This document shows positions 24,438 through 46,682 of a DNA stretch of 63,675 nt, in pieces. The stretch lies in the NCBI GenBank assembly GCA_028718745.1, contig JAQULF010000004.1:1-63675 (forward strand), read 5' to 3'. The stretch comes from Patescibacteria group bacterium. GTDB taxonomy: Bacteria > Patescibacteriota > JACPGU01. Within the stretch, counting starts at the first letter, position 1. Every line of letters begins with the position of its first letter. Both the position numbers and the translations under genes were made by a program. Under the pieces are notes generated by a model. The model was not told the DNA's origin, did not search any database, and saw only the letters and a list, made by a program, of their open reading frames with translations.

Positions 24438-25637
24438 ATGTCATTCAAAATACTAAAGCGCGACAAACAATCTAGTGCCCGCACCGGTATTCTAAAAACC
24501 ATACATGGCGACATCCGCACTCCCGTCTTTATGCCTGTGGGAACCCTTGGTACCGTAAAAACAACCACGCCCAACGAACTGAAAGAATTAGGCGCTGATA
24601 TTATATTGGGAAATACTTATCATCTCTATTTACGACCGGGGGATAAGGAAATCAAAAAACTGGGCGGATTGCATAATTTTATTAACTGGGATCGACCGAT
24701 ACTTACAGACTCGGGAGGCTATCAAGTGTTCTCATTGGCAAAAAATATTCGTCCTATTATATGTTCTACCGGTCATATTCGTCCTAAAAATTTAGTCAAA
24801 ATCACCCCCGATGGTGTTCACTTTCAATCCCATTTGGATGGGTCGCGACATTTCTTCACTCCCGAAAAAGTTGTCGATATTCAGCGCAATCTTGGTAGCG
24901 ATATCATGATGGTTTTGGATGAATGCACGTCATATCCTTGTTCAAAGAAATACGCAATAGAGGCCATGAATAGAACACACAATTGGGCGGAAAAAGCGAT
25001 AGAGCATTTTCATAAAACCGTAGGGGCACGGCGTGCCGTGCCCAAAAAGAGCCTGTTATTCGGTATAGTCCAGGGTTCCACCTTCAAAGATCTTCGCCAA
25101 AAATCTGCAAAATTTATTTCTTCACTCCCATTCGACGGCATCGCCATTGGTGGCGTTTCGGTAGGGGAGGGGAAAAAAGAAATGTACAAAGTCCTCGATT
25201 GGACAATCCCGCATATTCGTCCTACCGGTCCTATCCGTCCTATATATCTCATGGGTGTCGGCACCCCCGAAGATCTTCTCGAAGCTGTTGAGCGCGGCGT
25301 CGATATGTTTGATTGCGTCCTACCAACCAGACTCGCTCGCCACGGAACAGTTTGGTACTACGAAAAAACTGGAGGAAAATTAAATCTTTTAAATTCGTCC
25401 AATAAGTCCTATTCCGGTCCTATTATGAAAGATTGCCAATGTTACGCCTGCAAAAATGGTTTCTCCCGCGCTTACATTCATCATTTATTAAAAGAAAACG
25501 AAGTGCTTGGCATACGACTAACTACTTTGCACAATTTACACTTTTTACTTGATTTAATGCGACAAATAAGGGATAATATAGATAAAGGGACTTTTTTGAA
25601 ATTCAAAAAAGAGTTCCTTAAAAACTGGAAAATCTAG
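24438..25637 (+). CDS. tgt: Queuine tRNA-ribosyltransferase
   Basis: TPVFMPVGT, LTDSGGYQVFSL, YLMGVGTPEDL, zinc site CQCYAC...HHL. Confidence 0.95.
   Translation: MSFKILKRDKQSSARTGILKTIHGDIRTPVFMPVGTLGTVKTTTPNELKELGADIILGNTYHLYLRPGDKEIKKLGGLHNFINWDRPILTDSGGYQVFSLAKNIRPIICSTGHIRPKNLVKITPDGVHFQSHLDGSRHFFTPEKVVDIQRNLGSDIMMVLDECTSYPCSKKYAIEAMNRTHNWAEKAIEHFHKTVGARRAVPKKSLLFGIVQGSTFKDLRQKSAKFISSLPFDGIAIGGVSVGEGKKEMYKVLDWTIPHIRPTGPIRPIYLMGVGTPEDLLEAVERGVDMFDCVLPTRLARHGTVWYYEKTGGKLNLLNSSNKSYSGPIMKDCQCYACKNGFSRAYIHHLLKENEVLGIRLTTLHNLHFLLDLMRQIRDNIDKGTFLKFKKEFLKNWKI
24743..24790 (+). repeat. In-frame ATATTCGTCCTA word pair inside tgt
   Basis: aATATTCGTCCTAttatatgttctaccggtcATATTCGTCCTAaaaat encodes NIRPIICSTGHIRPKN, between the conserved FSL and GVHF blocks. 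Confidence 0.65.
25020..25043 (+). repeat. 24-nt REP-like GTAG + GC palindrome in frame inside tgt
   Basis: GTAG-GGGCACGGC-GT-GCCGTGCCC, codon-aligned, translated VGARRAVP. Confidence 0.8.
25212..25247 (+). repeat. In-frame (C/G)GTCCTA word run inside tgt
   Basis: catATTCGTCCTAccGGTCCTAtcCGTCCTAtatat encodes HIRPTGPIRPIY just before YLMGVG. Confidence 0.55.
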
Positions 25638-25652
25638 TCCCGGGAGGACAAA

Positions 25653-25781
25653 ATGAAAATGGCACTCTTGGTGCTTTTTACAATTGTCGGAATTATATTA
25701 TATTTCCGGATCGTGCTGGGCTCTCAAGGCAGGAAACAGAAAGAAATCGAAGCGCAATCAACCAACCCGCGAAAGAGGTGA
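25653..25781 (+). CDS. Small (42 aa) single-pass membrane protein (not in ORF track)
   Basis: GGGAGG 5 nt upstream; MKMALLVLFTIVGIILYFRIVLG then a basic/polar tail. Confidence 0.4.
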   Translation: MKMALLVLFTIVGIILYFRIVLGSQGRKQKEIEAQSTNPRKR

Positions 25782-25784
25782 GAA

Positions 25785-26132
25785 ATGGGAACCTACATAA
25801 TAGGTAAGAATCTCCATGTTGAGGTCGGGATTCATGAAAAAAAGCGTTCCTTTTATCTCTTCCTTGTGCCCCACAATAAAGAGGGGCAGGAAAAGGTGAG
25901 ATACATCCTCACAGCCCCTTCCTTCAAGGAAGAAGTGGCAAGAGCCGGTCGGTGGATTAAGATAACCACCACCATCAACAGTTACTGCCGTATGAAAAGT
26001 AATAGAGTTAAAATTCGGGTCCAGCTCAAAAATGACAAGTTCCGCGAATCTATCCTCAAAGAACTGCTGAAAACCATCACGACATGGCTCGACTTCTGGG
26101 ATGAAAAAATCGAGCTGGAGGAAGCCTCATGA
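25785..26132 (+). CDS. Hypothetical protein (GC-rich islet)
   Basis: 115 aa; GAGGTG upstream; stop overlaps the next ATG (ATGA). Confidence 0.45.
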   Translation: MGTYIIGKNLHVEVGIHEKKRSFYLFLVPHNKEGQEKVRYILTAPSFKEEVARAGRWIKITTTINSYCRMKSNRVKIRVQLKNDKFRESILKELLKTITTWLDFWDEKIELEEAS

Positions 26133-26290
26133 ACCACATCATCGGCATCGGTCTTCTGGTCTTGCGTACGATTGTCGCCGTGGGAAGATATGTCTGGCGG
26201 CGATACACACGAAACCAAAGCCCCGCTCCCGAGAAAAAGGGTAAAACGATCACACTCGGACCCGCAAGCGGTCCGCACCTAAGAAGATGA
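26129..26290 (+). CDS. Small (53 aa) single-pass membrane protein (not in ORF track)
   Basis: ATGA overlap with the previous gene; MNHIIGIGLLVLRTIVAVG then RYVWRRYTR basic tail. Confidence 0.35.
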   Translation: MNHIIGIGLLVLRTIVAVGRYVWRRYTRNQSPAPEKKGKTITLGPASGPHLRR

Positions 26291-26318
26291 AAGCAATAAA
26301 AGTTGTTCTCTTTTTTTG

Positions 26319-26402
26319 CCCCAGTCAAATTTGAAAACTATTTGACAGGGTTTACCCTAGTCAAATCCCAATGCAGTTGGGAGCGAAGCTATTTGACAGG
26401 GT
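26319..26402. repeat. Alternating AGTCAAAT / ATTTGACAGGG word palindrome, overlapping the U32 stop
   Basis: cccAGTCAAAT..ATTTGACaggg-ttt-accctAGTCAAAT..ATTTGACaggg. Confidence 0.7.
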
Positions 26403-27894
26403 GAATTTTCTTTCTCAAAATAGATCGCTCCGGGATTTCTTTTTTCCTTGTCCCGGGTATTCCCGAGGGAGCATCAAATGTAACCCAAACTTTTTCTTGT
26501 GGTTTTAAAATTTCTTCTAATTCAGGTCCGGGTGAAAAATTTTGCGCCCCTATGTTTTTTCTAATTTCTTTAATCTTTGTTTTTATAATCTCATCCGGCG
26601 TTATAATTTCAACTTTATCGCCAACTTTAAATTTATTTTTTACTTCAACTAAATACAAATATGTTGGTTCCGAGTTCAACTCGGAACCTTGATGCGAACT
26701 AACAACCGAGATAATTTGTCCAATTGGAATTACCGGCGGCCTGAAAGCCGCTACATTATATTCCTGTTCGTAATCGTGGCGGCCAAGTAGAAATCCATGA
26801 CTGTAACCTCTATGCTGAATCATATTTAATTCTTTATAAAGATCTTTGATTAATTTTTGATATTTTTCTCTGTTCTTATCAAAGATCCTTGATTTTCTGT
26901 TGGGTACAACAGAAGCTCGAGGATGACAATATACATAATATGCATTGATTGCCTTGCGATAAATGCGGGTTACAACTGCTAAATAATAAATGCTCTTTGC
27001 TCGTCCTTCAATTTTTAAAGAATCAATTCCCGATTCGATAAATTTATCTAATATGTCGAGCGAACAAATCTCTTTTGAATTCATAAAATATGTACCATTC
27101 TCATCTTCTTGTACCTCAACCAAATCTCTCGGACGAGTTTCTTCTTCAAGAAAACATTCTTGAAGTCCGACATCAAGATTAATCTTGATGTCGGACTTCG
27201 GAACCATCTTGACTTTGTATTTCCAGCGACAGCTTTGCGCGCAATCACCAAGATTCGCTTCTCGGCCGGTAAAATATTTTGACAATAAACATCTCCCCGA
27301 ATATGCCATACACATCGCGCCATGGCCGAAAACCTCTAATTCAGGTATGGTCCCGATGTTCAACTTAGGGGAATCCCCTAAGTTGAACATCGGGGATTTG
27401 GCCATTCTCTTTTTAATTTCCTTAATTTCTTCCAGCGTTGTTTCTCTCGCTAAAACCACCCTCTGCGCACCCAGCTTACCCCACATCATAACCCCTTCAG
27501 AATTTAAGGTATTCGCTTGCGTAGAAATATGAATCTCAACTTTGGGTAGATATTTTTTAACTAATGAAAACATTCCTAAGTCTGAAACGATAACCCCATC
27601 AGGAGAGGCCTGTAATTTTATTTTAATTTCTTTTAGCGCTCTTTCAATTTCCTTGAGTTGATTTTCATGCGGAAAAACATTAAAAGTTAGATAAACCTTC
27701 ACCCCTCGCTCATGCGCAAACTTAATTCCTTCCTTCAAAGTTTTCAAAGTGAAAGTAATTTCACGGGGATTTCGCAAACTCCAAGAGGGGAGTCCGCAAT
27801 AAACCGCATCCGCGCCAAAAACAACGGCTGTTTTTAGCCGTTCTAAGTCTCCGGCTGGACAAAGAAGTTCAATTTTTTTAATAGCTTTTTTCAT
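26389..27894 (-). CDS. Peptidase U32 family protein
   Basis: ELLCPAGDLERLKTAVVFGADAVYCG, EVFGHGAMCMAYSGRCLLS; carries three in-frame repeat insertions. Confidence 0.88.
   Translation of the reverse strand: MKKAIKKIELLCPAGDLERLKTAVVFGADAVYCGLPSWSLRNPREITFTLKTLKEGIKFAHERGVKVYLTFNVFPHENQLKEIERALKEIKIKLQASPDGVIVSDLGMFSLVKKYLPKVEIHISTQANTLNSEGVMMWGKLGAQRVVLARETTLEEIKEIKKRMAKSPMFNLGDSPKLNIGTIPELEVFGHGAMCMAYSGRCLLSKYFTGREANLGDCAQSCRWKYKVKMVPKSDIKINLDVGLQECFLEEETRPRDLVEVQEDENGTYFMNSKEICSLDILDKFIESGIDSLKIEGRAKSIYYLAVVTRIYRKAINAYYVYCHPRASVVPNRKSRIFDKNREKYQKLIKDLYKELNMIQHRGYSHGFLLGRHDYEQEYNVAAFRPPVIPIGQIISVVSSHQGSELNSEPTYLYLVEVKNKFKVGDKVEIITPDEIIKTKIKEIRKNIGAQNFSPGPELEEILKPQEKVWVTFDAPSGIPGTRKKEIPERSILRKKIHPVK
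26530..26553 (-). repeat. Degenerate 24-nt REP-like palindrome in frame in the U32 gene
   Basis: Gene strand ATAG-GGGCGCAAAATTTTTCACCC translated IGAQNFSP; compare VGAQNFAP at 36474-36497. Confidence 0.6.
26881..26929. repeat. 49-nt hairpin element in frame in the U32 gene
   Basis: aaagatccttgattTTCTGTTGggtaCAACAGAAgctcgaggatgacaa; 46/49 match to intergenic 35126-35174; translated CHPRASVVPNRKSRIF. Confidence 0.8.
27352..27394. repeat. 43-nt perfect palindrome inside the U32 CDS
   Basis: CCCGATGTTCAACTTAGGGGA-A-TCCCCTAAGTTGAACATCGGG (21-nt arms), translated within SPMFNLGDSPKLNIGT. Confidence 0.85.
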
Positions 27895-27905
27895 AAAATT
27901 ATAGA

Positions 27906-28000
27906 GGGTCTACGAATTACGAATTTATTACGAATGTACGAATCCTTTTCTAATAGTTTTCTCTTATTCGTATATTCGTACCTATTCGTAATTCGTAGAC
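27906..28000 (+). repeat. ~97-bp TACGAAT palindromic element, copy 2
   Basis: Near-identical to 17248-17347, same orientation; in the divergent U32 / VirD4-like spacer. Confidence 0.8.
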
Positions 28001-28023
28001 TTATTATACCAGAATTCTTTCCC

Positions 28024-28052
28024 TTGCTCAAAGAGGAAGAGTGTGATAAATT
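28024..28052 (+). promoter_or_regulatory. Candidate extended -10 promoter for the VirD4-like gene
   Basis: TTGCTC, 17-nt spacer ending TGTGA, TAAATT. Confidence 0.4.
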
Positions 28053-28077
28053 TAACATAACAAAATAAACATAAAAA

Positions 28078-30591: not shown

Positions 30592-30595
30592 TAAG

Positions 30596-30711: not shown

Positions 30712-30723
30712 AAAATAAAAGAT

Positions 30724-32825: not shown

Positions 32826-32869
32826 TAAACCTCTTTATAAATAAAAACTATTGCGCTATTATTATTTTT
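32826..32869 (+). repeat. 44-bp direct repeat, left copy (flanks the RAYT unit)
   Basis: TAAACCTCTTTATAAATAAAAACTATTGCGCTATTATTATTTTT, identical to 33652-33695. Confidence 0.85.
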
Positions 32870-32930
32870 ATTGCAAGCAATCCTAAAAACAAACAATATG
32901 CCAAGAAATACAAAAATTATTGTAAACTGT

Positions 32931-32957
32931 GTTGGCTCCATGCTCCTGCGTGGAGCC
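32931..32957 (+). repeat. REP hairpin, left flank of RAYT
   Basis: GTTG-GCTCCATG-CTCCTG-CGTGGAGC-C; exact reverse complement at 33559-33585. Confidence 0.85.
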
Positions 32958-33001
32958 TAAATGTTCAATAAAGCATTAAAAACATTTTAGACAAAAATAA
33001 A

Positions 33002-33541
33002 ATGCCCACACCAAGAGTAAATAAAGAAAATGAAAGTTTCCCTCATTTTGTAACTATAACTACCATTGAGTGGTTGGATATTTTTACCAAAAAAGAATAC
33101 TTTGAGATTATGATAGATTGTCTGAAATACTGCCGAGACAAATTAGGTCTTTTGCTTTATGAGTATGTCTTTATGACCAATCACATTCACTTAATAATCC
33201 AATCTAAAGAAGGATATAAACTATCTCAAATAATAAGCAGTTTCAAACAATTCACCAGTAAGAGAATATTAGACGAATTAGAGAAAGATCATAGAAAATA
33301 TATTTTAAAAATAATAGAAAATAGCTTTAGCAAAAAGGAAGGAACACAAATTCAAATCTGGCAGAGAGAAAACTACCCGGAGGTTTTAGAAACGGAAAAA
33401 TTTATGGATCAAAAGATTGACTATATTTATAATAATCCAGTTAAAAAAGGTTATGTAGAAAAACCGGAAGATTGGACTTATTCTTCGGCAAGAAATAAAT
33501 TTTTAGACGACAACAGCGTTATTACTCTAGATGATTTTTAA
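33002..33541 (+). CDS. REP-associated tyrosine transposase (RAYT; IS200/IS605 Y1 HUH family)
   Basis: HUH motif FMTNHIHLII; catalytic-Tyr block IDYIYNNPVKKGYV; 179 aa; flanked by inverted REPs. Confidence 0.85.
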   Translation: MPTPRVNKENESFPHFVTITTIEWLDIFTKKEYFEIMIDCLKYCRDKLGLLLYEYVFMTNHIHLIIQSKEGYKLSQIISSFKQFTSKRILDELEKDHRKYILKIIENSFSKKEGTQIQIWQRENYPEVLETEKFMDQKIDYIYNNPVKKGYVEKPEDWTYSSARNKFLDDNSVITLDDF

Positions 33542-33558
33542 TACCCATGGTGCATTTT

Positions 33559-33585
33559 GGCTCCACGCAGGAGCATGGAGCCAAC
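33559..33585 (-). repeat. REP hairpin, right flank of RAYT
   Basis: GGCTCCACGCAGGAGCATGGAGCCAAC is the perfect 27-nt inverted copy of 32931-32957. Confidence 0.85.
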
Positions 33586-33651
33586 ATCCGGAAAATTAAA
33601 AAGGGAGGATTGTTAGTAGGTATTTTAATTAAAATGATTTTAATTCAGTCC

Positions 33652-33695
33652 TAAACCTCTTTATAAATAAAAACTATTGCGCTATTATTATTTTT
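33652..33695 (+). repeat. 44-bp direct repeat, right copy
   Basis: Identical to 32826-32869; here it continues into a TATAAT box. Confidence 0.85.
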
Positions 33696-33742: not shown

Positions 33743-33780
33743 TTATTCGTATATTCGTACCAATTCGTAATTTGTAGACC
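33743..33780 (+). repeat. Right-arm-only remnant of the TACGAAT element
   Basis: tttattcgtatattcgtaccaattcgtaatttgtagacc matches the right arm of the 17248/27906/54846 elements. Confidence 0.6.
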
Positions 33781-33863: not shown

Positions 33864-34418
33864 ATGATAACAAACAACAAAACAGCGGGGGACTCAAACC
33901 TCGATATTGTGCGACATTTACTGGAATCGGCTGAAGCGCAAATCAGAAGCGCAAAACAGCTTTTGGATGGCGGAGCGACAAAAGGAAAAAGATTAAAGAA
34001 AGCTGATCTGGAACATAAAATTTCGGAATTAAATATAATCTCTGAAGGCAGAATCATCGAAGGTATTTTTGATGGTGAAATGATGATTGGGCCGGAAAAA
34101 AAGAAATATCCGGTACCGGCAAACTACGCTTCAAAATCCAAATTTGTAGCTGGAGATGTTTTGAAATTAACCATTGAAGAAGACGGTTCTTTCGTTTATA
34201 AACAAATCAAACCAATTGACCGCAAACGCCTTGTAGGCTCATTATTGTACGAAGATGGCCAATATAAGGTCCTAGCCGGCGGAAAGGCCTATAAAGTGCT
34301 ATTAGCGTCGGTTACATACTTTAAGTTAAAGCCCGGCGACGGCGTTACTGTAGCCGTACCGTCCGAAGAAGATTCCGACTGGGCAGCAATAGAGTCCGCA
34401 GCGATAAATGAGGAATAA
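33864..34418 (+). CDS. Hypothetical protein
   Basis: 184-aa ORF with core-genome (AT-rich) composition, downstream of the promoter at 33677. Confidence 0.55.
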   Translation: MITNNKTAGDSNLDIVRHLLESAEAQIRSAKQLLDGGATKGKRLKKADLEHKISELNIISEGRIIEGIFDGEMMIGPEKKKYPVPANYASKSKFVAGDVLKLTIEEDGSFVYKQIKPIDRKRLVGSLLYEDGQYKVLAGGKAYKVLLASVTYFKLKPGDGVTVAVPSEEDSDWAAIESAAINEE

Positions 34419-34424
34419 ATAAAA

Positions 34425-34476
34425 GTAGTAAGTAGTAAGCATGTAAGTAGTATGTAGGGGCGCATTGCATGCGCCC
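34425..34476 (+). repeat. GTAG word array ending in a REP-like GTAG + palindrome
   Basis: gtagtaagtagtaagcatgtaagtagtat-GTAG-GGGCGCAT-TGC-ATGCGCCC. Confidence 0.8.
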
Positions 34477-36278: not shown

Positions 36279-39185
36279 TTACAGTTCCACACTCTCCCCC
36301 GGTTTGATGACATTATCATCCTCTTCGCCAACAGGGAAAACAAGATCTTCGGCCACCCCTTCACCGATTGGGATATCTTTAATCGTTTCCTGATCGGGCG
36401 CGATGAATCGCGCCCCTACATTCTCTTCGATAGGGCTAATACTTTCACTAGAAACATTTTCCGCAACATTCTCGGGCGCAAAATTTTGCGCCCCTACGGG
36501 TTCTTCTTCATTTTTAATTTTTACCCCGTCAAATTGCGAAGCAACATTTGACTGGGGTGACTTTTGACTTTTTCTAATGTACCACACTCCCCCTTCTTTC
36601 CCTTTTACCTCTCGATAACCTTCACCGGATTTTTTAACTGGAATAAATTCTTGCGCTTGCCCTGGCGTATCAGGAGAAAAACTGCCCCTCTCTCCTCCTC
36701 TGACGGGGTTGAGCGAGTTTTGCGCGATAGATTCGCTCCAGGTGAGAATAGCTTGCTCGACATCCGCTCTTGGAATGGCGTATTTCATTCTTGATTCATC
36801 AATAATTTTTTGTCCCAGATTATATTTTTCTTTAAAATACTCCCAAAACTTTATTGTAGTAGCCGAAAATGCCGGATAAACGGTATTGTCGATCATCATT
36901 TTTACATAAATCTGAAATGTGCTTAAATTTAATAAGTCGTTCTCATCAAACACCGGTTCGAAAATCTTTTTTAGAGTTGGCGGATCGTCCGGACCAACGC
37001 GAAAAGCGATGATATTTCCGGCATTACCCAAAACGGAATCTCGAATATCAGGATCCAATTGAGCAATATATTGATGCGCAATAATCAGGTTTAATTTATA
37101 TTTGCGAGATTCTGACAAAATGCTGGCGAATGAAGAAGTGGCAAAATTCTGAAACTCATCCACATATAGGTAGAATGGCTTCATCTCCTCATCGCGCCTT
37201 CCCGCTCTCTCCATGATTGTAAGGTAAATTTTAGTAATAATCATGGCTCCCAAAAGCCTCATATTATCCTCTCCAACCTCACCTTTGGAAATTTTTACCA
37301 ATAAAATTTTTCCATTGTCAGTGATGTCTTTAAAATCAATCGTTGATTTCGGCTGGCCAACCATATTGCGAATTGATGGAACGGAAAGAAATTGTCCGAT
37401 TTTATTTTGAATTGGAGCAATCGCCTCAACAAGAAATTTCGGACTGGCTTTTACCTGCGCTTCAAATTCCTCAATCCAAAATTCGCGAACCGAAACATCT
37501 TTCACATTATCGATAATCATCTTGCGATATTCTTTGTTAACCAACATTTTTGAAGCTGAAAGCAAGGTAGTCCCCGGAGTTTCGAGCAGTGCCAGAATCG
37601 TATTTTTTAAAATATGCTCCATGCGAGCGCTCCAAACACCCGGCCAGATTTTGGTAAAAATGCTCATGAGAGATGAGGCAATCAAGTCTCTTTTATTCTC
37701 ATCGACATTTTCCAGCAAATTAAATCCCGGACAAAATTCCCTATCCCCCGGATTGAGAATAACCACATCTTTAATCCTATTTTCCGGAATATAATCCAGA
37801 ATGGTATCGATAAATTCTCCGTGCGGATCGATAATTGCCAGTCCCCTGCCCTCTCGAATATCGTCCAGAGCTTGGATTTTCATCACGGTTGATTTACCGG
37901 TACCGGTTTGTCCGATGATATACATATGCTGAACACGGTCTTTCATTTTAATACCAAAGTTGGTGATCTTATCGCGGAAATTGGTTTGGCCAAAAACAGT
38001 CAGTTCCTCTGCGGGAACTTCACCTTCTATCGGCAATGTTGCCGGCGGCTCGCCTTTTTTACTGCCCGACCAATCAATGGTTGGAGTTTCAACCGTTATG
38101 GTTGGTAAGTGATAAAGCGAAGCTAATTCTTCAATGTTTAAAATATAACCGTCCTCCTCAAAATTTCTGGTCTGAAAAGCGTTCAAAAATTCATAATCAT
38201 CGTGATAATATCCTCTGTTTATAAAGCCATTAAGATTGGAAGCATTATATTGTTTGAAAGCACCCACGATTGACTGCACTTTTATTTTCATGGCTTCATT
38301 GCTTTTGGAAGACAAGAACATCAAGCGAATTTTGGCTTCATAGCCAAGCTTGGTAGATTTTTCTTCGATGGCTTTAACCGCCTGCTCCATAGGCCCGGAA
38401 AGCTTTACCGCTGTCGCACCCTTCGATCCGACAGAGGGTTCGGGAGCAAAAACCAGTTTTAAAAATAAGAATATATAGTAGAAGATTTTAAAAATGCCAA
38501 TCGCAGCATCAGGTACTCTCTTGCCGCTTTTGATATTATTTATGTAATGAATGGCTTTATTTTGCCATTTGTCGCTGACGGGACGAGCCAACATTTGAAT
38601 CCAAATTTGTTCTCCTTCATCTAACTGCGACAAAACTCCGGTAATGCTGGCCAAGGGATCCACTTCGAAGTTTAAAAATGTTTTAATAGGGAAAAAGTCG
38701 CGCCTAATCAAGGAAAGCTCGGTACCAACAAAGTGACTCCCCTCTTTTCTTTTTTCCAGCGTATAGTCGCCCGCTTCGGAAATATCCACATTGGGATATT
38801 GCGCGTAGACCTGTCCGGTAACAAAATCTTTTAGATGAACCGGCGCGAAGATATAGAAACGAATGTATTTATCAGTAGAGACAATCTCAAAGCTCAAATG
38901 CTCTTGGAAAGAACCTTCTTCCAATTTCTCACGGGCTGATTTATAAATGCCATGCAGTGAAGCAAACATCAATTGAGCGGATAAAGGTCCTTTTTCATTA
39001 TTTCTCGGCACGCGAACCAGAATGGTGGTATATTTCTGCTTGGTAATCCAGAGCCTTTTGCGTCTTTTACTGTAAGCTTTGAGCACCAGATAGATACCAA
39101 AAATCCAACCTGATAAAATCAGGATGTAAATCAGATAGCGCACTACTTCATAGGCAATCGTGGCAAAATCGATGGGGGTGTTCAT
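36279..39185 (-). CDS. VirD4/TraD-like coupling-type ATPase, membrane-anchored, paralog 2, with long low-complexity C-terminal tail
   Basis: Walker A GQTGTGKST, IDPHGE, Walker B FYLYVDEFQNF, RKYKLNLIIAHQ; N-terminal domain alignable to paralog 1. Confidence 0.8.
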   Translation of the reverse strand: MNTPIDFATIAYEVVRYLIYILILSGWIFGIYLVLKAYSKRRKRLWITKQKYTTILVRVPRNNEKGPLSAQLMFASLHGIYKSAREKLEEGSFQEHLSFEIVSTDKYIRFYIFAPVHLKDFVTGQVYAQYPNVDISEAGDYTLEKRKEGSHFVGTELSLIRRDFFPIKTFLNFEVDPLASITGVLSQLDEGEQIWIQMLARPVSDKWQNKAIHYINNIKSGKRVPDAAIGIFKIFYYIFLFLKLVFAPEPSVGSKGATAVKLSGPMEQAVKAIEEKSTKLGYEAKIRLMFLSSKSNEAMKIKVQSIVGAFKQYNASNLNGFINRGYYHDDYEFLNAFQTRNFEEDGYILNIEELASLYHLPTITVETPTIDWSGSKKGEPPATLPIEGEVPAEELTVFGQTNFRDKITNFGIKMKDRVQHMYIIGQTGTGKSTVMKIQALDDIREGRGLAIIDPHGEFIDTILDYIPENRIKDVVILNPGDREFCPGFNLLENVDENKRDLIASSLMSIFTKIWPGVWSARMEHILKNTILALLETPGTTLLSASKMLVNKEYRKMIIDNVKDVSVREFWIEEFEAQVKASPKFLVEAIAPIQNKIGQFLSVPSIRNMVGQPKSTIDFKDITDNGKILLVKISKGEVGEDNMRLLGAMIITKIYLTIMERAGRRDEEMKPFYLYVDEFQNFATSSFASILSESRKYKLNLIIAHQYIAQLDPDIRDSVLGNAGNIIAFRVGPDDPPTLKKIFEPVFDENDLLNLSTFQIYVKMMIDNTVYPAFSATTIKFWEYFKEKYNLGQKIIDESRMKYAIPRADVEQAILTWSESIAQNSLNPVRGGERGSFSPDTPGQAQEFIPVKKSGEGYREVKGKEGGVWYIRKSQKSPQSNVASQFDGVKIKNEEEPVGAQNFAPENVAENVSSESISPIEENVGARFIAPDQETIKDIPIGEGVAEDLVFPVGEEDDNVIKPGESVEL
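36396..36419 (-). repeat. 24-nt REP-like GTAG + palindrome in frame in the VirD4-like tail
   Basis: Gene strand GTAG-GGGCGCGAT-TC-ATCGCGCCC translated VGARFIAP. Confidence 0.8.
36474..36497 (-). repeat. 24-nt REP-like GTAG + palindrome in frame in the VirD4-like tail
   Basis: Gene strand GTAG-GGGCGCAAAATTTTGCGCCC translated VGAQNFAP. Confidence 0.8.
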
Positions 39186-40620: not shown

Positions 40621-40654
40621 TTATGGATACTAATTTATGTGAGGTTTCTTAAGA

Positions 40655-41415: not shown

Positions 41416-41595
41416 AATAAACCCCTTTGCCCATGCAGCCGTCAAGTGACCTGCACCCGGGCATTTTTTATATTTGCCATGCAGCCATTCTCTAAAAATT
41501 CAGAGAATCCGCATCCAGCAGCTTTGTGAAAGAACATTTGGCTTTATAATGAATTGTCAGTTTCACGAAGTATAGGGTTCTAAAAAATAATAGTT

Positions 41596-41955
41596 TTATT
41601 CCTTAATCTTAACTTCTTTATCAAAAAATCTTTTAAAATAAAAATCTCTTAGAACCGCTACTTTCTGAATGATTCTAAACATAAAAACTACCGTAACGCC
41701 GAGATATAAATCCAGGTTAAGTTTATCGCCGAGATAGACAAAAAAAGCTGCGATGAAAACATAAAAAAGCAGGCCGGTTATAAAATTAGCCACATTAAAT
41801 TCCTTCTTTGTTTGAGCGCCAATGGCGCCAATCAAAGAATCCAAGATAGCTAAAATCGCCACCGCTGTATAGCGGGAATATTCTGGAGCTATATTGAATG
41901 GAAGAAAAGCCCCTAAAATAGTTCCTAAAAAAATACCAAGAATTGCGTAAAGCAT
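41596..41955 (-). CDS. Small basic membrane protein, DUF1290/Sbp-like
   Basis: MLYAILGIFLGTILGAF...YSRYTAVAILAILDSLIGA...; the ORF-track N-terminus (41956-41982) is encoded by the repeat. Confidence 0.55.
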   Translation of the reverse strand: MLYAILGIFLGTILGAFLPFNIAPEYSRYTAVAILAILDSLIGAIGAQTKKEFNVANFITGLLFYVFIAAFFVYLGDKLNLDLYLGVTVVFMFRIIQKVAVLRDFYFKRFFDKEVKIKE

Positions 41956-41960
41956 AATTT

Positions 41961-42044
41961 CTCCCGAATTATCCCAAATCATTCCCTAATTTTCCCCAAT
42001 TCCCATTCGGGATATTCGGGTGTAATTCGGGATAATTAGGGATT
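41961..42044. repeat. Intergenic word palindrome (CCCGAATT / CCCTAATT), second family member
   Basis: ctcccgaattatcccaaatcattccctaattttcccc ... attcgggatattcgggtgtaattcgggataattagggat. Confidence 0.75.
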
Positions 42045-42045
42045 C

Positions 42046-42936: not shown

Positions 42937-42970
42937 AATGTTCTAAAATTATTTATAATTGATAGAAGTC

Positions 42971-43053
42971 AATGAATAAATGATTATATGAATAAATGAA
43001 TAAAAAAGTTTAAGCTATTTCTAATCATTTAATCCTTTATTTATTTATTCATT
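42971..43053. repeat. Intergenic word palindrome (AATGAATAAA family), between secD and secF
   Basis: aatgaataaatgattatatgaataaatgaataaaa ... atcatttaatcctttatttatttattcatt. Confidence 0.75.
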
Positions 43054-43062
43054 TTGATCTAT

Positions 43063-44346
43063 TTATTTCCTCACTTTCTTTCCTAAAAATAAGAAAAGTA
43101 GGTTTCGTGTTACTGTTATTGCTGTAAATAAGCTAACCAATATACCAACTGCCAGCGTTAAGGCAAATCCTTTTACTAGGCCTGTGCCAAGGAAAAACAG
43201 GATTGCGCAAGTGATGAGCGAAGAAGCATTTGAGTCGCGAATAGAAGTCCAAGCGCGATTAAATCCGGCCTTAATAGCGGAACTATAAGCTTTCCCGCGC
43301 CGTAATTCCTCTTTCATTCTTTCAAAAATAAGGATATTGGCATCCACAGCCATACCTACCGAAAGGATAAATCCGGCGATACCGGCCAAAGTCATAGTAA
43401 CCGGAATTAATTTGAATAAGGCAATTACAATCAATGCGTAAACCGCTAAAGCGATTGAAGCGATCAAACCGGCAAATCGGTATCGGAAAATCATGAAAAG
43501 CACTACAAATAAAATTCCGATTAATCCGGCAATAAAGCTTTTGTGAACAGAATCTTGTCCCAAAGTCGCGCCGACATTTCTTTGTTCTACCAGATTAATC
43601 GGCACGGGAAGCGCTCCGGCATTAAGTTGCAAAGCTAATTTCTTGGCCGCGTCCATAGTAAATTGTCCGGTAATCACAGCGTTCCCGCCATCAATCGCTT
43701 GATTGACCCGGGGAGCTGAAAGCAATTCTTTATCCAAAAATATAGCCAGAGGCTTGCCTACATTTCTTCCCGTTACTTCAGAAAAAATCTTGGCGCCTTC
43801 ATCATTGAAAGTGATTGAGATCTCCGGCTCATAATTACTTTGACTGACTTGAGCGGTAGCTTTTTTAAATAATGATCCATTAAGTCCCACATCTTGCCAG
43901 TCATCGATTAGAATAGATTTAAGCTGACCATTTTCTAATGATTTTCCCTCTATTCCCTCTCGAAATTCCAGTTGAGCCGTTTGCCCAATCATGGCAATCG
44001 CTTCATCAATGTTTGTAATACCGGGAAGCTCTACGAGAATCTTGTAGTTATTCAAACCTGAAGTGGTTTGAATTACCGGTTCAGAAACTCCAAGCGCGTT
44101 AATTCGGCGATCAAGGACGGTTTGAACTCCTTCCAAAGCGCTATCGCGATCCTTTGCGGCAACTTTGCTCATATCAGCTTCATAAACCAAATGAGCTCCG
44201 CCAAGAAGATCGAGACCTTGTTGGATCTTTAATTCTTTATAATAGCTCCCTATTTTCAAATTGGGACCCTTTGGCCAGTCAACAATCCCTGCTAAAACAG
44301 AGATAACGATGATGACAAAAAACATTATCCAGATTTTCTTTCGCAT
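43063..44346 (-). CDS. secD: Protein translocase subunit SecD
   Basis: GLDLLGGAHLVYEAD, GVSEPVIQ, C-terminal 6-TM domain. Confidence 0.93.
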   Translation of the reverse strand: MRKKIWIMFFVIIVISVLAGIVDWPKGPNLKIGSYYKELKIQQGLDLLGGAHLVYEADMSKVAAKDRDSALEGVQTVLDRRINALGVSEPVIQTTSGLNNYKILVELPGITNIDEAIAMIGQTAQLEFREGIEGKSLENGQLKSILIDDWQDVGLNGSLFKKATAQVSQSNYEPEISITFNDEGAKIFSEVTGRNVGKPLAIFLDKELLSAPRVNQAIDGGNAVITGQFTMDAAKKLALQLNAGALPVPINLVEQRNVGATLGQDSVHKSFIAGLIGILFVVLFMIFRYRFAGLIASIALAVYALIVIALFKLIPVTMTLAGIAGFILSVGMAVDANILIFERMKEELRRGKAYSSAIKAGFNRAWTSIRDSNASSLITCAILFFLGTGLVKGFALTLAVGILVSLFTAITVTRNLLFLFLGKKVRK

Positions 44347-44427
44347 GGTAAATGAGTTAGTTTAATAGTCTATAAAAATCATTTTAAACTAAAAAAATCA
44401 TTTCTGCAACTAGAAAATTTTATATTA

Positions 44428-44530
44428 TCTCAAATGTAATATGTTAAATGTTAAAGCCATATGTCAAATGTCGAAGCTGTCTTTAGCTAAATAGTTTTAA
44501 GATTTGGTTCTAACATTTAACATTTGAGAT
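44428..44530. repeat. Intergenic word palindrome (CTCAAATG / GTTAAATGTTA)
   Basis: ATCTCAAATG pairs with CATTTGAGAT and GTTAAATGTTA with TAACATTTAAC (perfect). Confidence 0.8.
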
Positions 44531-44730
44531 TTAAGATATTATTTTTTAAGCTTTGACATAACCATCTATTATTTATCAAAAAACCCTTGACAGTATCTAC
44601 AAAATATGCTATATTTAATGTGTAATCTAACAGGTATTTAATCCTCTCCCAGTTTATGATAAAATTGAGAGAGTGGACTTTGACAATAAAATCACGGATA
44701 CCAATCCGTATGTCGAGGAGAAAAGATGTT

Positions 44731-44907
44731 ATGAAAAAACATCAAGTGGTGGTATCGGCAGTAATCTTAGGCATCATAATGGGATTGGCAGGAAGATTAA
44801 CCCACAAGGATATAGCGTGGGCGGCCGAGATGGCAACACTTTCAACCGTTCTTATCGGCGTATGGAGAGTTGTTGATCTCCTGAAGCAAATCAAAGAGAA
44901 ACTGTAA
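44731..44907 (+). CDS. Small (58 aa) two-helix membrane protein (GC-rich islet)
   Basis: MKKHQVVVSAVILGIIMGLAG...LSTVLIGVWRVV; GAGGAG upstream. Confidence 0.4.
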   Translation: MKKHQVVVSAVILGIIMGLAGRLTHKDIAWAAEMATLSTVLIGVWRVVDLLKQIKEKL

Positions 44908-44961
44908 AACCCCGCCAATCACGCCAAGCGTGAGCGGGAATTGCCAAAGGAGGCAAAAATC

Positions 44962-45849
44962 ATGAAACGGATACTCGTAATCGCGATCCTCGCGATCGTG
45001 GCAACATTCGTCAGCTTCATCGGCATCGCGCAGGCAGAGACAATGTATCTGAAAGAAGTGGCCTGCACGACATTCATCAAAGAGATGAAAACGAATGTCT
45101 GCTTCGCCTATCTGGCGAATCAGCCGAATTCCGCCGGCATTTACGACTCGGCACTCGAGTTCAATGAAGGCGGATGCGCCGATCCCCAAAGAACATCGGC
45201 CATGAGTAAGTCGTTCGTCGCCAATGGTGAAAAAGTACAAAGACTCGCTCTGTATGTGCCGAGACTGGATAAGTGCTTTTCCCAGACATTCGACGGCACA
45301 CCGATTCAAACGGTGAACGACAATGTCCGACTGGGAAATCAGTACGCCGCAGACACAAACGCAACTGCTCATGAAATTCAGGACAGCGCGACTCTCGTCG
45401 CGGCTTGCAAGAGCCGAGTCAACGCGAAATACCGGAAAACATTTAACTCCGGTACGACCTACGACTTTGCTCACGCGATCGCCGCCGCAACCTGCAAAAG
45501 CAGCAGCTGGTGCCCATATGTCGTTGCCGGCAGCGAGTTCAAAGCCGACATGCAGGACAGGAAATGGGCCATGGCAATTGTGGATTGCGAGAGTAATCCC
45601 GGTCCCATGACAGGCAACGAGCAAATGTACGCCGGCGCTCCGACAACACCGCCACCTTACTACTCGGCGCCCGCCGCGCCCATCTACTACCCGCCGGCAC
45701 CGAACTACGGCAGCGGATATGGCTACGAATATCCGCCGTACCCGCAAACACAGCGCGCGCCCGGCTCACGCCATATCTTCATGAACAACTGCATGCAGAG
45801 ATTCAACGACAGTGACTACTGTCATTACGCATACGAATACAACAGGTAG
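44962..45849 (+). CDS. Secreted hypothetical protein with Pro/Tyr-rich C-terminal region (GC-rich islet)
   Basis: AAGGAGG 8 nt upstream of the ATG; signal peptide ILVIAILAIVATFVSFIGIAQA; 50% GC in hand-counted 45001-45060. Confidence 0.55.
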   Translation: MKRILVIAILAIVATFVSFIGIAQAETMYLKEVACTTFIKEMKTNVCFAYLANQPNSAGIYDSALEFNEGGCADPQRTSAMSKSFVANGEKVQRLALYVPRLDKCFSQTFDGTPIQTVNDNVRLGNQYAADTNATAHEIQDSATLVAACKSRVNAKYRKTFNSGTTYDFAHAIAAATCKSSSWCPYVVAGSEFKADMQDRKWAMAIVDCESNPGPMTGNEQMYAGAPTTPPPYYSAPAAPIYYPPAPNYGSGYGYEYPPYPQTQRAPGSRHIFMNNCMQRFNDSDYCHYAYEYNR

Positions 45850-45882
45850 AACCAGACCTGCTGTGCAACAACGCAACAACTG

Positions 45883-45911
45883 GGGCGGACTCGAAAGAGC
45901 CGCCCTATTTT
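45883..45911 (+). terminator. GC-rich terminator of the islet
   Basis: GGGCGG(A)CTC-GAAA-GAGCCGCCC followed by TATTTTC. Confidence 0.65.
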
Positions 45912-45922
45912 CATGTCTTGCA

Positions 45923-45975
45923 TTTGGAATGGGACGATAGTCCGTTACTTTTGACACACTATCGTGTGTCACTCC
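45923..45975 (+). repeat. GGAATG...GTCACTCC double-hairpin element, copy A
   Basis: TTTGGAATG-[GGAC-GATA-GTCC]-gttacttt-T[GACACAC-TATC-GTGTGTC]ACTCC; overlaps the rluD-like stop codon. Confidence 0.75.
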
Positions 45976-46682
45976 AGGAGCATTTTCAAATCACTTGGTA
46001 ATTTTGATTTAAAATCCAACATCTCGCCGGTTTTAGGATGTTTAAATGATAGTTCAGATGCATGTAGGAACTGACGACGAAGTCCTATTTTTTTTGAGAA
46101 AATTTCCGAATCGCGGCTTTTATAAACCGGATCCCCCACCACCGGAAATCCAATCGCAAAAAAATGCGCGCGAATTTGGTGAGTGCGGCCGGTCTCGATG
46201 ATTACATCAATATAAGACAAATCGGGCATATGGGACGAATGTAAATACTTTTTAACTTCGTAATGCGTGATAGCTTCTCTCCCAAGGGCGTTATGTATAA
46301 CGCCCCTACAACTCACAAAACGGGTCCGATTTTTTGGGTCTCTTTTCAAGGCGATATTGATCGTCCCTTTTTTTGGTTCCAGTTTACCAAAAACCAAGGC
46401 TTCATAAATCTTTTTAACTTGGTGAGAGGCGAACTGGTTTTGAAGGTTAACCAGCGCCTTTTCATTTTTTGCCACAACCATCAGCCCCGAGGTATCGCGA
46501 TCCAAACGATGAACAATCCCTCCGCGGGGCAGATTGATTTTGTATTCATTAATTAAAATTTTTTCCAATGTAGAGACGCTACTCCTCGCGTCTTTTTTAT
46601 CAGATTCAACGACTAAACCTGAAGGCTTGTTTATTACCAACAAATCATCGTCTTCAAATATGATCTCGAAATATTTAGACAT
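45969..46682 (-). CDS. RluA/RluD-family pseudouridine synthase (no S4 domain)
   Basis: LLVINKPSGLVV, HRLDRDTSGLMVVAKN, GRTHQIRAH; start set at MSKYFEI because upstream codons are repeat-encoded. Confidence 0.88.
   Translation of the reverse strand: MSKYFEIIFEDDDLLVINKPSGLVVESDKKDARSSVSTLEKILINEYKINLPRGGIVHRLDRDTSGLMVVAKNEKALVNLQNQFASHQVKKIYEALVFGKLEPKKGTINIALKRDPKNRTRFVSCRGVIHNALGREAITHYEVKKYLHSSHMPDLSYIDVIIETGRTHQIRAHFFAIGFPVVGDPVYKSRDSEIFSKKIGLRRQFLHASELSFKHPKTGEMLDFKSKLPSDLKMLLE
46286..46309 (-). repeat. 24-nt REP-like GTAG + palindrome in frame in the rluD-like gene (different frame)
   Basis: Gene strand GTAG-GGGCGTTAT-AC-ATAACGCCC, read as (C)RGVIHNAL. Confidence 0.8.

What the first reader, a model, noticed from the sequence alone, without database searches (positions are those of the whole stretch)
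25020..46309. REP-like 24-nt elements (GTAG + GC-rich palindrome) sit in frame inside conserved protein-coding genes
Copies: tgt 25020-25043 (GTAG-GGGCACGGC-GT-GCCGTGCCC, VGARRAVP). VirD4-like tail 36396-36419 (VGARFIAP) and 36474-36497 (VGAQNFAP). U32 peptidase 26530-26553 (degenerate, IGAQNFSP). rluD-like 46286-46309 (other frame, RGVIHNAL). Extragenic relatives lie at 34454-34476 and 3716-3742, where the element serves as the nrdJ terminator stem. The architecture is a conserved GTAG, then GGGC(G/A)C, a variable self-complementary core, and G(C/T)GCCC. This matches classical REPs, which carry a GTAG 5' of the hairpin that RAYT enzymes need for cleavage. REPs are extragenic by definition. 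Here the unit is exactly 24 nt (8 codons), lacks stops in the frames used, and recurs as the same peptide in unrelated proteins. Either the element inserts into genes and is tolerated in surface loops, or it is removed at the RNA or protein level.
Basis: partly seen in the sequence, partly recalled or inferred. Interest (0 to 1): 0.7.

Follow-up and report, generated by a model that had tools for sequence, protein, structure and literature searches.

The report
REP hairpins translated inside bacterial genes
A 24-base GTAG-plus-hairpin repeat of the known REP type sits mostly inside intact, conserved genes of an uncultured Patescibacteria (CPR3-like) bacterium and is most likely translated as eight extra residues in loops and tails; REPs inside genes were already known, but not in this lineage or at this density.

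Summary
The window holds 9 strict copies of GTAG plus a roughly 20-nt perfect palindrome, against 0.24 expected, and one decayed copy. Eight of the ten lie inside intact ORFs: tgt, U32 peptidase, a VirD4-like ATPase tail (two copies), an RluA-like synthase (two copies), a cobA-like gene and a lipoprotein linker.

They are insertions. Most orthologues lack them. One relative shows a clean +24-nt filled site where three others, the window included, are empty. Four different TGT loops carry copies in sister lineages. Near-identical 24-mers occur in unrelated genes. The encoded peptides fall in low-confidence loops or unconserved tails. A decayed copy with no hairpin is still in frame, which argues for translation rather than excision.

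This matches GTAG-tagged REPs, and REPs inside genes were already described (PMC3733652). "Extragenic by definition" is therefore wrong.

The RAYT at 33002-33541 is genuine, but it is flanked by a different hairpin family, as are its homologues in two other contigs. It is probably not the cognate enzyme of the GTAG family. That second family also enters genes.

Verdict: a new member of a known kind, with an unusually high share of copies inside genes. Moderate interest.

The parts
3718..3742 (+). Extragenic GTAG hairpin (25 nt, GTAGGGGTTTGATTTTATCAAACCC) 32 nt after the nrdJ stop. A T-run follows it and a (GTAGTAA)n heptamer array runs into it in phase.
   Evidence: -12.4 kcal/mol
3988..4011 (-). 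GTAG hairpin antisense inside the lipoprotein/trypsin-like peptidase gene 3899-5149. It encodes KGAINRAPT just after a lipobox-like LLSSC. It matches the 36396 copy at 23 of 24 positions.
10222..10245 (+). AGAC-subtype GTAG hairpin, sense frame 0, in the cobA-like gene 9844-10380 (VETHGRVS).
25020..25043 (+). GTAG hairpin, sense frame 0, in tgt 24438-25637 (VGARRAVP, aa 195-202). It covers the end of a helix and a loop with pLDDT below 50.
26530..26553 (-). Decayed copy (ATAGGGGCGCAAAATTTTTCACCC) in U32 peptidase 26389-27894 (IGAQNFSP). The hairpin is lost but the copy is in frame. Three orthologues lack it.
34454..34476 (+). Extragenic GTAG hairpin (23 nt) after gene 33864-34418, again preceded in phase by a GTAGTAA heptamer array.
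36396..36419 (-). GTAG hairpin, sense frame 0, in the unconserved acidic C-terminal tail of the VirD4/TrwB-like ATPase 36279-39185 (VGARFIAP, aa 923-930).
36474..36497 (-). GTAG hairpin, sense frame 0, in the same tail (VGAQNFAP, aa 897-904).
46286..46309 (-). GTAG hairpin, sense frame 1, in the RluA-like pseudouridine synthase 45969-46715 (RGVIHNAL). It is absent from 30 of 31 aligned orthologues; one (P0125, locus L091) has a same-length RGV... segment that looks like a decayed copy.
46570..46593 (+). AGAC-subtype GTAG hairpin, antisense in the same RluA-like gene (DARSSVST).
33002..33541 (+). REP-associated tyrosine transposase (RAYT), with HUH motif NHIHLI and Tyr motif DYIYNNP. It is the only copy in the window.
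   Evidence: NF047646, 104.9 bits against a cut-off of 80; only PDB hit is E. coli TnpA_REP, 4ER8
32930..32963 (+). Left arm of the 34-nt inverted repeat that brackets the RAYT. It holds the family-B hairpin GTTG-GCTCCATGCTCCTGCGTGGAGCC.
33553..33586 (-). Right arm of the same inverted repeat (family B).
5154..5177 (+). Extragenic family-B hairpin (GGTTCAATGCTCCCGCATTGAACC), directly after ORF 3899-5149.
6692..6715 (+). Extragenic family-B hairpin, identical to the one at 5154, after ORF 5378-6670.
26663..26688 (+). Family-B variant (GTTG-GTTCCGAGTTCAACTCGGAACC), antisense inside U32 peptidase (QGSELNSEPT). L086 carries the canonical family-B hairpin at the same site.

Best explanation
These are GTAG-tagged REP elements of the short perfect-palindrome type: an unpaired GTAG followed by an 8-10-bp GC-rich stem, 23-26 nt long and most often 24. 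They sit in the chromosome of a CPR3-like Patescibacteria bacterium.

They multiply by copying within the genome. By analogy with characterised REP/RAYT systems, a RAYT-type HUH/Y1 enzyme probably acts on the folded single strand; this step is inferred. The genome is about 87% coding and the commonest unit is 24 nt. The unit has no stop codon in two of the three sense frames, nor in the antisense frame used by either antisense copy. Many insertions into genes therefore preserve the reading frame.

The copies that persist lie where eight extra residues are harmless: surface loops, a lipoprotein linker, a disordered C-terminal tail. There they are transcribed and translated, most often as V-G-A-x-x-x-A-P, and then decay like any loop sequence.

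Shown here: the family is non-random; it lies inside intact ORFs; it is absent from orthologues; one site is a clean +24 nt; different loops of the same protein are hit in sister lineages; the peptides fall in loops or tails; a genuine RAYT gene is present; and relatives carry extragenic tail-to-tail doublets.

Inferred: the mobilising enzyme, the insertion mechanism, and translation itself.
For: - Non-chance repeat family: 5 hits against 0 and 9 against 0.24 expected.
- Copies in unrelated genes are near-identical. 3988 and 36396 match at 23/24; 36474 and 26530 at 21/24. GTAGGGGCGAACGGCCGTTCGCCC is identical in L083 (inside TGT) and in L091 (just after the RluA gene), which are different organisms and contexts.
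- Host genes are intact and score strongly against Pfam and NCBIfam.
- Absence from orthologues: three of three U32 orthologues and 30 of 31 RluA orthologues.
- Clean insertion. In TGT loop 4 the window, L081 and L085 read ...TAC GAA|AAA AC., while L215 has exactly 24 extra nt, GTAGGGGCGCGGTATGCCGCGCCC.
- Four TGT loops carry copies in different lineages, and TGT lengths range from 379 to 492 aa.
- AlphaFold places VGARRAVP at a helix end and a loop with pLDDT below 50. Both RluA peptides fall in that model's two lowest-confidence blocks.
- The VirD4-like tail is not conserved in 150 homologues.
- Intact hairpins fold at about -10 to -18 kcal/mol (the six intact intragenic GGGC-type copies at -15 to -18). 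The decayed U32 copy folds at -3.6 but stays in frame.
- The RAYT passes the curated NCBIfam equivalog cut-off, and its only PDB relative is E. coli TnpA_REP.
- Relatives L084 and L093 carry the same GTAG family as extragenic tail-to-tail doublets, the classical REP arrangement.
- Literature. The S. maltophilia REP is 23 nt: GTAG, an 8-bp perfect palindrome and a 3-nt loop. It is cleaved by its RAYT at CT (PMC8266576). Intragenic GTAG REPs are documented (PMC3733652).
Against: - The RAYT in the window and its homologues in L092 and L093 are flanked by a different hairpin family (B), not by GTAG hairpins. The cognate enzyme of the GTAG family is therefore unidentified.
- Most filled-versus-empty comparisons are not clean +8 aa. 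RluA is +4 aa at both sites, U32 +7, TGT loop 2 +4 to +5, and CobA +2 against Salmonella. Either the element replaced a few codons or the loops were later trimmed.
- At TGT loop 2 the window and L081 (81% identical proteins) carry different perfect palindromes at the same position, with three compensated stem changes. Simple insert-and-decay does not explain this. It needs turnover, conversion or selection on the stem.
- Intragenic copies are strongly biased to the sense orientation, about 10 of 12 independent events (one-sided binomial about 0.02, my count). Stop codons do not explain this.
- No expression or proteomic data are available.
- Only 64 kb of this genome was seen.
Confidence: 0.75

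Rival explanations
1. The hairpins are kept because they do something as nucleic-acid structures. They could act in the mRNA (stabiliser, pause or processing site, attenuator) or in DNA (a protein-binding or uptake-type signal). Their presence in genes would then be selected, not merely tolerated.
For: - Sense-orientation bias, about 10 of 12 intragenic events.
- All three lone extragenic copies point the same way as the upstream gene.
- The 3718 copy doubles as a terminator-like stem.
- Perfect palindromes persist at the orthologous TGT loop-2 site with three compensated pair changes between the window and L081.
- An identical copy is kept in L083 and L085.
- A pyrimidine sits at position -1 in 20 of 21 distinct copies.
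Against: - Presence or absence varies between close relatives, and the positions differ between lineages.
- Decayed copies persist in frame.
- No Rfam family matches.
- The orientation bias could equally come from strand-specific single-strand insertion, because genes here run with the GC skew.
Confidence: 0.15
2. The GTAG family is a REP, but the RAYT at 33002-33541 does not mobilise it. That enzyme serves only family B. The GTAG copies would spread through another RAYT paralogue elsewhere in the genome, or by recombination or gene conversion between copies. This is a sub-variant of the best explanation and could hold together with it, so its confidence is not exclusive of the 0.75 given there.
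For: - In three of three RAYT loci (the window, L092 and L093; 67-73% identical proteins) the gene is bracketed by inverted family-B hairpins.
- Family B is itself dispersed, both outside and inside genes.
- RAYTs flanked by repeats unrelated to GTAG REPs are known (PMC3733652).
- Replacement-like net length changes, and different palindromes at one site, fit conversion.
Against: - The heads are similar (GTAGG against GTTGG). Some RAYTs tolerate changes in the tetranucleotide for binding (PMC8266576).
- L093 has a GTAG doublet about 210 nt downstream of its RAYT.
- Only one RAYT is visible, but only 64 kb of the genome was seen.
Confidence: 0.4
3. The 24 nt are removed after transcription or translation, so the mature proteins lack them.
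For: Nothing beyond the stable, well-defined hairpin.
Against: - The decayed copy at 26530 and the L091 relic no longer fold but are still in frame.
- Removal would leave RluA 4 aa, CobA 6 aa, and TGT about 2 aa shorter than orthologues.
- Copies of 23 and 26 nt in relatives are kept in frame by their flanks.
- Antisense copies exist.
- To my knowledge no excision of this kind is known in bacteria.
Confidence: 0.03
4. The palindromes arise on the spot, by template-switch inverted duplication of local sequence or by convergent selection for a VGAxxxAP loop. They are not copies of a mobile family.
For: The net gain is often about 12 nt rather than 24. The gene-internal 38- and 43-nt palindromes in U32 have no second copy in the data.
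Against: - The GTAG and stem sequences are identical or near-identical in unrelated genes and in intergenic DNA.
- Frame-1 and antisense copies encode different peptides.
- L215 shows a clean +24-nt site.
Confidence: 0.03

Closest known systems
GTAG-tagged REPs mobilised by group-3 RAYTs (for example the S. maltophilia REP, 23 nt; PMC8266576, PMC3733652, PMC2817692)
   Same: Unpaired 5' GTAG. An 8-10-bp GC-rich perfect palindrome with a 2-4-nt loop. Length 23-25 nt. Dispersed copies. Tail-to-tail doublets in relatives. A RAYT gene in the genome. Some copies directly after genes, as terminator-like stems.
   Different: Eight of ten copies in this window are inside genes, and all ten are singletons. 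The visible RAYT is flanked by another hairpin family. The host is a small-genome Patescibacteria bacterium, not a proteobacterium.
Intragenic REPs catalogued by Di Nocera et al. 2013 (most numerous in Opitutus terrae; PMC3733652)
   Same: GTAG REPs lying wholly within known protein genes and read through as extra residues. Pseudouridine synthase genes are among their hosts. RAYTs flanked by unrelated inverted repeats are also described there.
   Different: [quoted passage not shown] Here single 8-aa units predominate, and the same loops are hit repeatedly in sister lineages.
Rickettsia palindromic elements (RPE)
   Same: Selfish palindromic repeats inserted in frame into conserved protein genes and tolerated at surface positions. 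(The general description is from my own knowledge; RPEs are mentioned in PMC3733652.)
   Different: RPE-1 is about 100-150 bp. The short RPEs carry a CGTC tag, not GTAG (PMC3733652). The lineage differs, and no RAYT link is established.
REPINs (REP doublets; PMC3116915)
   Same: GTAG-headed hairpins associated with RAYTs. The doublets in L084 and L093 look like REPINs.
   Different: REPINs are thought to be the mobile unit, and singlets are thought to be immobile. Here singlets appear at new sites, for example the +24 nt in L215.
Small dispersed repeats and heptamer tandem repeats (STRR) of heterocystous cyanobacteria
   Same: Hairpin-forming repeats of 21-27 nt that can sit inside genes, together with abundant heptanucleotide tandem arrays.
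   Different: The sequences and the lineage differ, no GTAG/RAYT link has been reported, and I did not test the comparison.

Membership tests
REP (GTAG-tagged repetitive extragenic palindrome) | Short (20-40 nt) GC-rich palindrome able to form a stem-loop | tested here: met
   Perfect stems of 8-10 bp; the six intact intragenic GGGC-type copies fold at -15 to -18 kcal/mol.
REP (GTAG-tagged repetitive extragenic palindrome) | Conserved unpaired GTAG immediately 5' of the stem | tested here: met
   GTAG is present in 9 of 10 window copies (ATAG in the decayed one) and in all copies found in relatives.
REP (GTAG-tagged repetitive extragenic palindrome) | High copy number dispersed around the genome | tested here: inconclusive
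   There are 10 copies in 63.7 kb, about 0.16 per kb. Only this contig of the genome is available. Relatives show 0-0.5 per kb.
REP (GTAG-tagged repetitive extragenic palindrome) | Predominantly extragenic location | tested here: not met
   Eight of ten copies are inside intact ORFs, and the coding fraction is about 0.875. The literature does accept intragenic members (PMC3733652).
REP (GTAG-tagged repetitive extragenic palindrome) | Cognate RAYT gene flanked by the same REP (a REPtron) | tested here: not met
   A RAYT is present, but family-B hairpins flank it here and in L092 and L093.
REP (GTAG-tagged repetitive extragenic palindrome) | Occurrence as inverted doublets or BIME-like clusters | tested here: inconclusive
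   None in the window. Tail-to-tail doublets occur in L084 (884-940) and L093 (1929-1983, 6169-6218).
REP (GTAG-tagged repetitive extragenic palindrome) | Bound and cleaved as single-stranded DNA by a RAYT | not testable with these tools
   This needs biochemistry, such as the cleavage and strand-transfer assay of PMC8266576.
RAYT (REP-associated tyrosine transposase), for ORF 33002-33541 | HUH motif and catalytic Tyr motif; passes the curated family model | tested here: met
   NHIHLI and DYIYNNP are present. NF047646 scores 104.9 bits against a cut-off of 80. Pfam Y1_Tnp matches. The only PDB hit is 4ER8, E. coli TnpA_REP.
RAYT (REP-associated tyrosine transposase), for ORF 33002-33541 | Single gene bracketed by inverted hairpin repeats that are also dispersed in the genome | tested here: met
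   34-nt inverted arms, 97% complementary. Family-B copies lie at 5154, 6692 and 26663 in the window, and inside the L086 TGT and U32 genes.
Rickettsia palindromic elements | In-frame insertion into conserved protein genes | tested here: met
Rickettsia palindromic elements | Element length and sequence family (RPE-1 about 100-150 bp; short RPEs with a CGTC tag) | tested here: not met
   Here the element is 24 nt with a GTAG tag.
MITE | Terminal inverted repeats with a target-site duplication | tested here: not met
   No duplication is seen at any of 21 distinct junctions. There is only a pyrimidine at position -1.

The most novel reading that the evidence does not exclude
In CPR3-type genomes REP hairpins may be more than tolerated passengers. 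They could be aimed at, or repeatedly rewritten at, particular coding sites, by hairpin-directed templated replacement or by 'homing' to an existing copy. That would make them a steady source of protein-loop variation, and their sense-strand stems could also have been co-opted as mRNA structures.

The hints are these. Different perfect palindromes sit at the same TGT position in sister lineages. Net length changes look like replacement, often +4 aa rather than +8. There is a strong bias to the sense orientation and to frame 0. A pyrimidine almost always sits at position -1. And copy density inside genes (0.14 per kb) is not far below that outside genes (0.25 per kb).
Probability: 0.12. Interest if true: 0.7.

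Novelty: new member of a known kind. Interest (0 to 1): 0.42.

Why it matters
REPs are usually treated as intergenic. In a genome with very little intergenic DNA the same kind of element seems to survive mainly inside genes.

This has practical consequences. It inflates and diversifies loop regions of conserved CPR proteins; TGT lengths run from 379 to 492 aa. That can mislead alignments, phylogenies and structure predictions.

It also offers a natural map of where conserved enzymes tolerate eight-residue insertions. And it gives a tractable test of whether single REP hairpins, rather than doublets, can move, and which RAYT recognises which hairpin.

Tried and rejected
It returned only distant bacteria at about 50% identity and no CPR relatives. 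It was wasted.
- The metagenome scan with a lineage-specific 541-aa neighbour returned one locus (L084).
Most are high-GC, with classical GTAG REPs. A few low-GC contigs have sense, frame-0 copies in long ORFs, but nearly all of those ORFs lack Pfam matches, so I did not use them for statistics.
- Rfam and tRNA scans of the window found nothing.
- A peptide regular expression on the homologue sets was too noisy to count insertions.
- I tested whether intragenic copies are selectively 3n. 24 nt is also the commonest length outside genes (6 of 10 outside, 13 of 17 inside), so it is a family property and not evidence of per-copy selection.
- I considered on-the-spot inverted duplication to explain the +4-aa net changes. 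I rejected it for the GTAG family because copies share sequence across unrelated genes.
- I looked for a target-site duplication and found none.
- I could not separate orientation relative to transcription from orientation relative to replication, because gene direction and GC skew co-vary in the window.

Full report
**What is in the sequence**

The motif is real and is not a chance pattern. GTAGGGGCRC-N(4-12)-GYGCCC occurs 5 times against 0 in 100 dinucleotide-preserving shuffles. A broader definition, GTAG followed by a 19-21-nt palindrome, gives 9 copies against a shuffle mean of 0.24 and a maximum of 2.

With the decayed copy at 26530-26553 the window holds ten copies. Three were missed:
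- 3988-4011(-), antisense in gene 3899-5149.
- 10222-10245(+), in the cobA-like gene.
- 46570-46593(+), antisense in the RluA-like gene.

The last two belong to a second subtype, GTAG-AGAC(A/G)C...G(T/C)GTCT, which reads V-E-T-...-V-S in frame 0.

The GTAG-hairpin copies fold as RNA at -10.3 to -17.8 kcal/mol; the six intact intragenic GGGC-type copies fold at -15 to -18. The decayed U32 copy folds at only -3.6.

**Organism and host genes**

The closest relatives of the TGT, RluA-like and RAYT proteins are metagenomic proteins. Where they carry a name, it is 'candidate division CPR3', Patescibacteria, Microgenomates or similar. The window carries ribosomal protein genes in the same order as those relatives, so it is chromosomal.

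The host genes are well supported:
- TGT, Pfam E = 5e-149.
- Peptidase U32, E = 8e-75.
- A TrwB/VirD4-like ATPase.
- An RluA-type pseudouridine synthase.
- A cob(I)yrinic acid a,c-diamide adenosyltransferase-like protein.
- A trypsin-like lipoprotein.

A greedy ORF set gives a coding fraction of about 0.875. Eight of ten copies are intragenic. That is 0.14 per kb in coding DNA and 0.25 per kb in non-coding DNA, so the family is barely depleted from genes.

**Are they insertions?**

Yes, on several lines of evidence.

- All three syntenic U32 orthologues lack the IGAQNFSP segment and show a 7-aa gap there.
- Thirty of 31 aligned RluA-like orthologues lack RGVIHNAL. One (P0125, locus L091) has a same-length RGV... 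segment at that position that looks like a decayed copy.
- The cleanest case is TGT loop 4. The window, L081 and L085 read ...TAC GAA|AAA AC. there. L215 reads ...CAT CCC [GTAGGGGCGCGGTATGCCGCGCCC] AAA ACA, which is exactly 24 nt more.
- Across the close TGT relatives, lengths run from 379 to 492 aa. GTAG-type copies occupy four different loops in different lineages. L083 alone has four copies, of 24, 23, 23 and 26 nt.
- Copies in unrelated genes are near-identical: 3988 and 36396 match at 23/24, and 36474 and 26530 at 21/24. One 24-mer is identical inside the TGT gene of L083 and just downstream of the RluA gene of L091.

Together these show copying of a family, not independent origin.

**Where the encoded peptides fall**

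- In an AlphaFold model of the TGT (mean pLDDT 85), VGARRAVP (aa 195-202) spans the end of helix 170-196 and the following loop. Residues 198-202 have pLDDT below 50.
- In the RluA-like model (mean pLDDT 90.6), the two element peptides fall in the two lowest-confidence 10-residue blocks, at 73 and 71.
- The two VirD4-like copies lie in an acidic C-terminal tail. None of the best 150 homologues aligns across the second copy (aa 923-930), and most alignments end near residue 815-850.
- The 3988 copy encodes the stretch just after a lipobox-like LLSSC.

**Translated or removed?**

No direct expression data exist, but the sequence evidence favours translation.

- The decayed copy at 26530 and the L091 relic no longer form the hairpin, yet they remain in frame.
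- Copies of 23 and 26 nt in L083 are kept in frame by their flanks.
- Deleting the 24 nt would leave the RluA-like protein 4 aa shorter than its orthologues at both sites, CobA 6 aa shorter than Salmonella CobA, and TGT about 2 aa shorter than the shortest relative.

**Details that do not fit simple 'insert and decay'**

- Most comparisons give a net gain smaller than 8 aa: +4 at both RluA sites, +7 in U32, and +4 to +5 at TGT loop 2. The element therefore seems to have replaced a few codons, or the loops were trimmed afterwards.
- At TGT loop 2 the window has GTAG-GGGCACGGCG/TGCCGTGCCC. L081, whose TGT is 81% identical, has GTAG-AGACACGCCG/CGGCGTGTCT at exactly the same position. Three stem positions differ on both arms, so both copies are perfect palindromes. 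L083 has a third variant at the same site in frame 1, and L084 has what looks like a relic. This points to turnover or conversion between family members, or to selection on the stem.
- Of about 12 independent intragenic events in the CPR loci, about 10 are sense. Among sense copies, frame 0 (V-G-A) outnumbers frame 1 (R-G) by about 10 to 2 (the count is mine). Frame 2 is excluded by the TAG. The two antisense copies seen both use one stop-free frame. Stop codons therefore do not explain the sense bias.
- Position -1 is a pyrimidine in 20 of 21 distinct copies. No target duplication is present.

**The RAYT**

ORF 33002-33541 is a genuine REP-associated tyrosine transposase. It scores 104.9 bits against NCBIfam NF047646 (cut-off 80). 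It has the HUH motif NHIHLI and the tyrosine motif DYIYNNP. Its only PDB relative is E. coli TnpA_REP, 4ER8.

It is bracketed by a 34-nt inverted repeat, 97% complementary. That repeat contains a different hairpin, GTTG-GCTCCATGCTCCTGCGTGGAGCC, which I call family B. RAYT homologues 67-73% identical, in two other Patescibacteria contigs (L092, L093), are bracketed by the same family-B hairpin. By the usual REPtron logic, family B is this enzyme's cognate repeat.

Family B is also dispersed:
- Two identical extragenic copies follow ORFs at 5154 and 6692.
- A variant lies antisense inside the U32 gene at 26663-26688.
- In L086 the canonical family-B sequence lies inside TGT (encoding APCSCVEP) and inside U32.

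Entering genes is therefore a property of more than one hairpin family in this lineage. Whether this RAYT also handles the GTAG family is open. The heads differ by one base (GTAGG against GTTGG), and some RAYTs tolerate tetranucleotide changes for binding (PMC8266576).

**Relatives with the classical arrangement**

In L093 and L084 the same GTAG-GGGCG hairpins occur as extragenic tail-to-tail doublets, between convergent or tandem genes. A scan of viral contigs shows the motif is widespread, mostly in high-GC contigs typical of classical GTAG REPs.

**Comparison with what is known**

The architecture matches GTAG-tagged REPs. It is especially close to the short perfect-palindrome REPs served by group-3 RAYTs. 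The S. maltophilia REP is 23 nt: GTAG, an 8-bp stem and a 3-nt loop (PMC8266576).

Intragenic GTAG and CGTC REPs were catalogued in 2013. That survey included cases in pseudouridine synthase, uvrA and polymerase genes, and it discussed tolerance in loops. It also described RAYTs flanked by repeats unrelated to GTAG REPs (PMC3733652). The statement that REPs are extragenic by definition is therefore too strong, and the core idea is not new.

What is new here:
- The lineage. Two full-text searches found no report for CPR/Patescibacteria.
- The predominance of intragenic singletons.
- The repeated use of the same loops in sister lineages.
- The co-occurrence of a second, RAYT-flanking family that behaves the same way.

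**Verdict**

I file the element as a new member of a known kind. Interest is moderate. It would rise if a genome-wide census and population data showed active targeting or rewriting of coding loops.

Noticed in passing
window 3684-3721(+), 11631-11662(-), 23713-23793 (inverted pair between the L10 and L12 genes), 34423-34457(+): Tandem heptamer arrays (GTAGTAA)n occur in intergenic DNA: 13 near-matches to GTAGTAAGTAG against 0.18 expected. They carry stop codons in all three frames. Two of the arrays run in phase straight into the GTAG of the extragenic hairpins at 3718 and 34454, as if the REP head were one more repeat unit.
   Followed up: partly
window 32826-32869 and 33652-33695: A perfect 44-nt direct repeat, 826 nt start to start, brackets the whole RAYT cassette (the gene plus both family-B arms). 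This suggests that the cassette was inserted or duplicated as a unit.
   Followed up: no
window 27162-27199 and 27352-27394 (U32 peptidase gene, - strand): Perfect palindromes of 38 nt and 43 nt lie in frame inside the U32 peptidase gene, encoding roughly PKSDIKINLDVGL and SPMFNLGDSPKLNIG. The first lies where two of three orthologues (L085, L088) have gaps, the second where two (L086, L088) do; in each case the third orthologue carries a different insertion at the same site. Neither palindrome has a second copy in any sequence fetched. The window's U32 protein is 34-59 aa longer than those orthologues.
   Followed up: partly
window 24741-24791 and 25214-25243 (tgt): Two further TGT loops are filled with I-R-P repeats built from ATATTCGTCCTA-like units, including a 9-nt tandem repeat. 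The unit resembles the intergenic octamer TATTCGTA, which is repeated in tandem at 17313-17345, 27965-27997 and 33744-33759 and recurs near 54868-54914. Relatives carry IRPIRP at the same loops and at others. Other recurring loop modules in relatives are ELRIKNK, NPKSPKS and IHNS.
   Followed up: partly
window, around 35 kb: Gene orientation and GC skew both switch sign near 35 kb: plus-strand genes and positive skew to the left, minus-strand genes and negative skew to the right, with cumulative skew at its maximum. This is compatible with a replication terminus or a large convergent boundary. The RAYT cassette lies just beside it.
   Followed up: no
window 24702-24899 (tgt residues 89-154): In the PDB search, TGT residues 89-154 also matched TAL-effector repeat proteins (AvrBs3 and others) with whole-sequence E-values down to 4e-11, yet no individual stretch passed. 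The region includes the I-R-P repeat insertion. This is probably a composition or repeat artefact.
   Followed up: no
L090 1184-1211 (RluA-like orthologue, 75% identical by BLASTP): The closest RluA-like orthologue lacks both of the window's copies. It carries an AGAC-subtype copy (GTAGAGACACGCAATGGCGTATCTCTAC, encoding PVETRNGVS) in a third loop of the same protein.
   Followed up: partly
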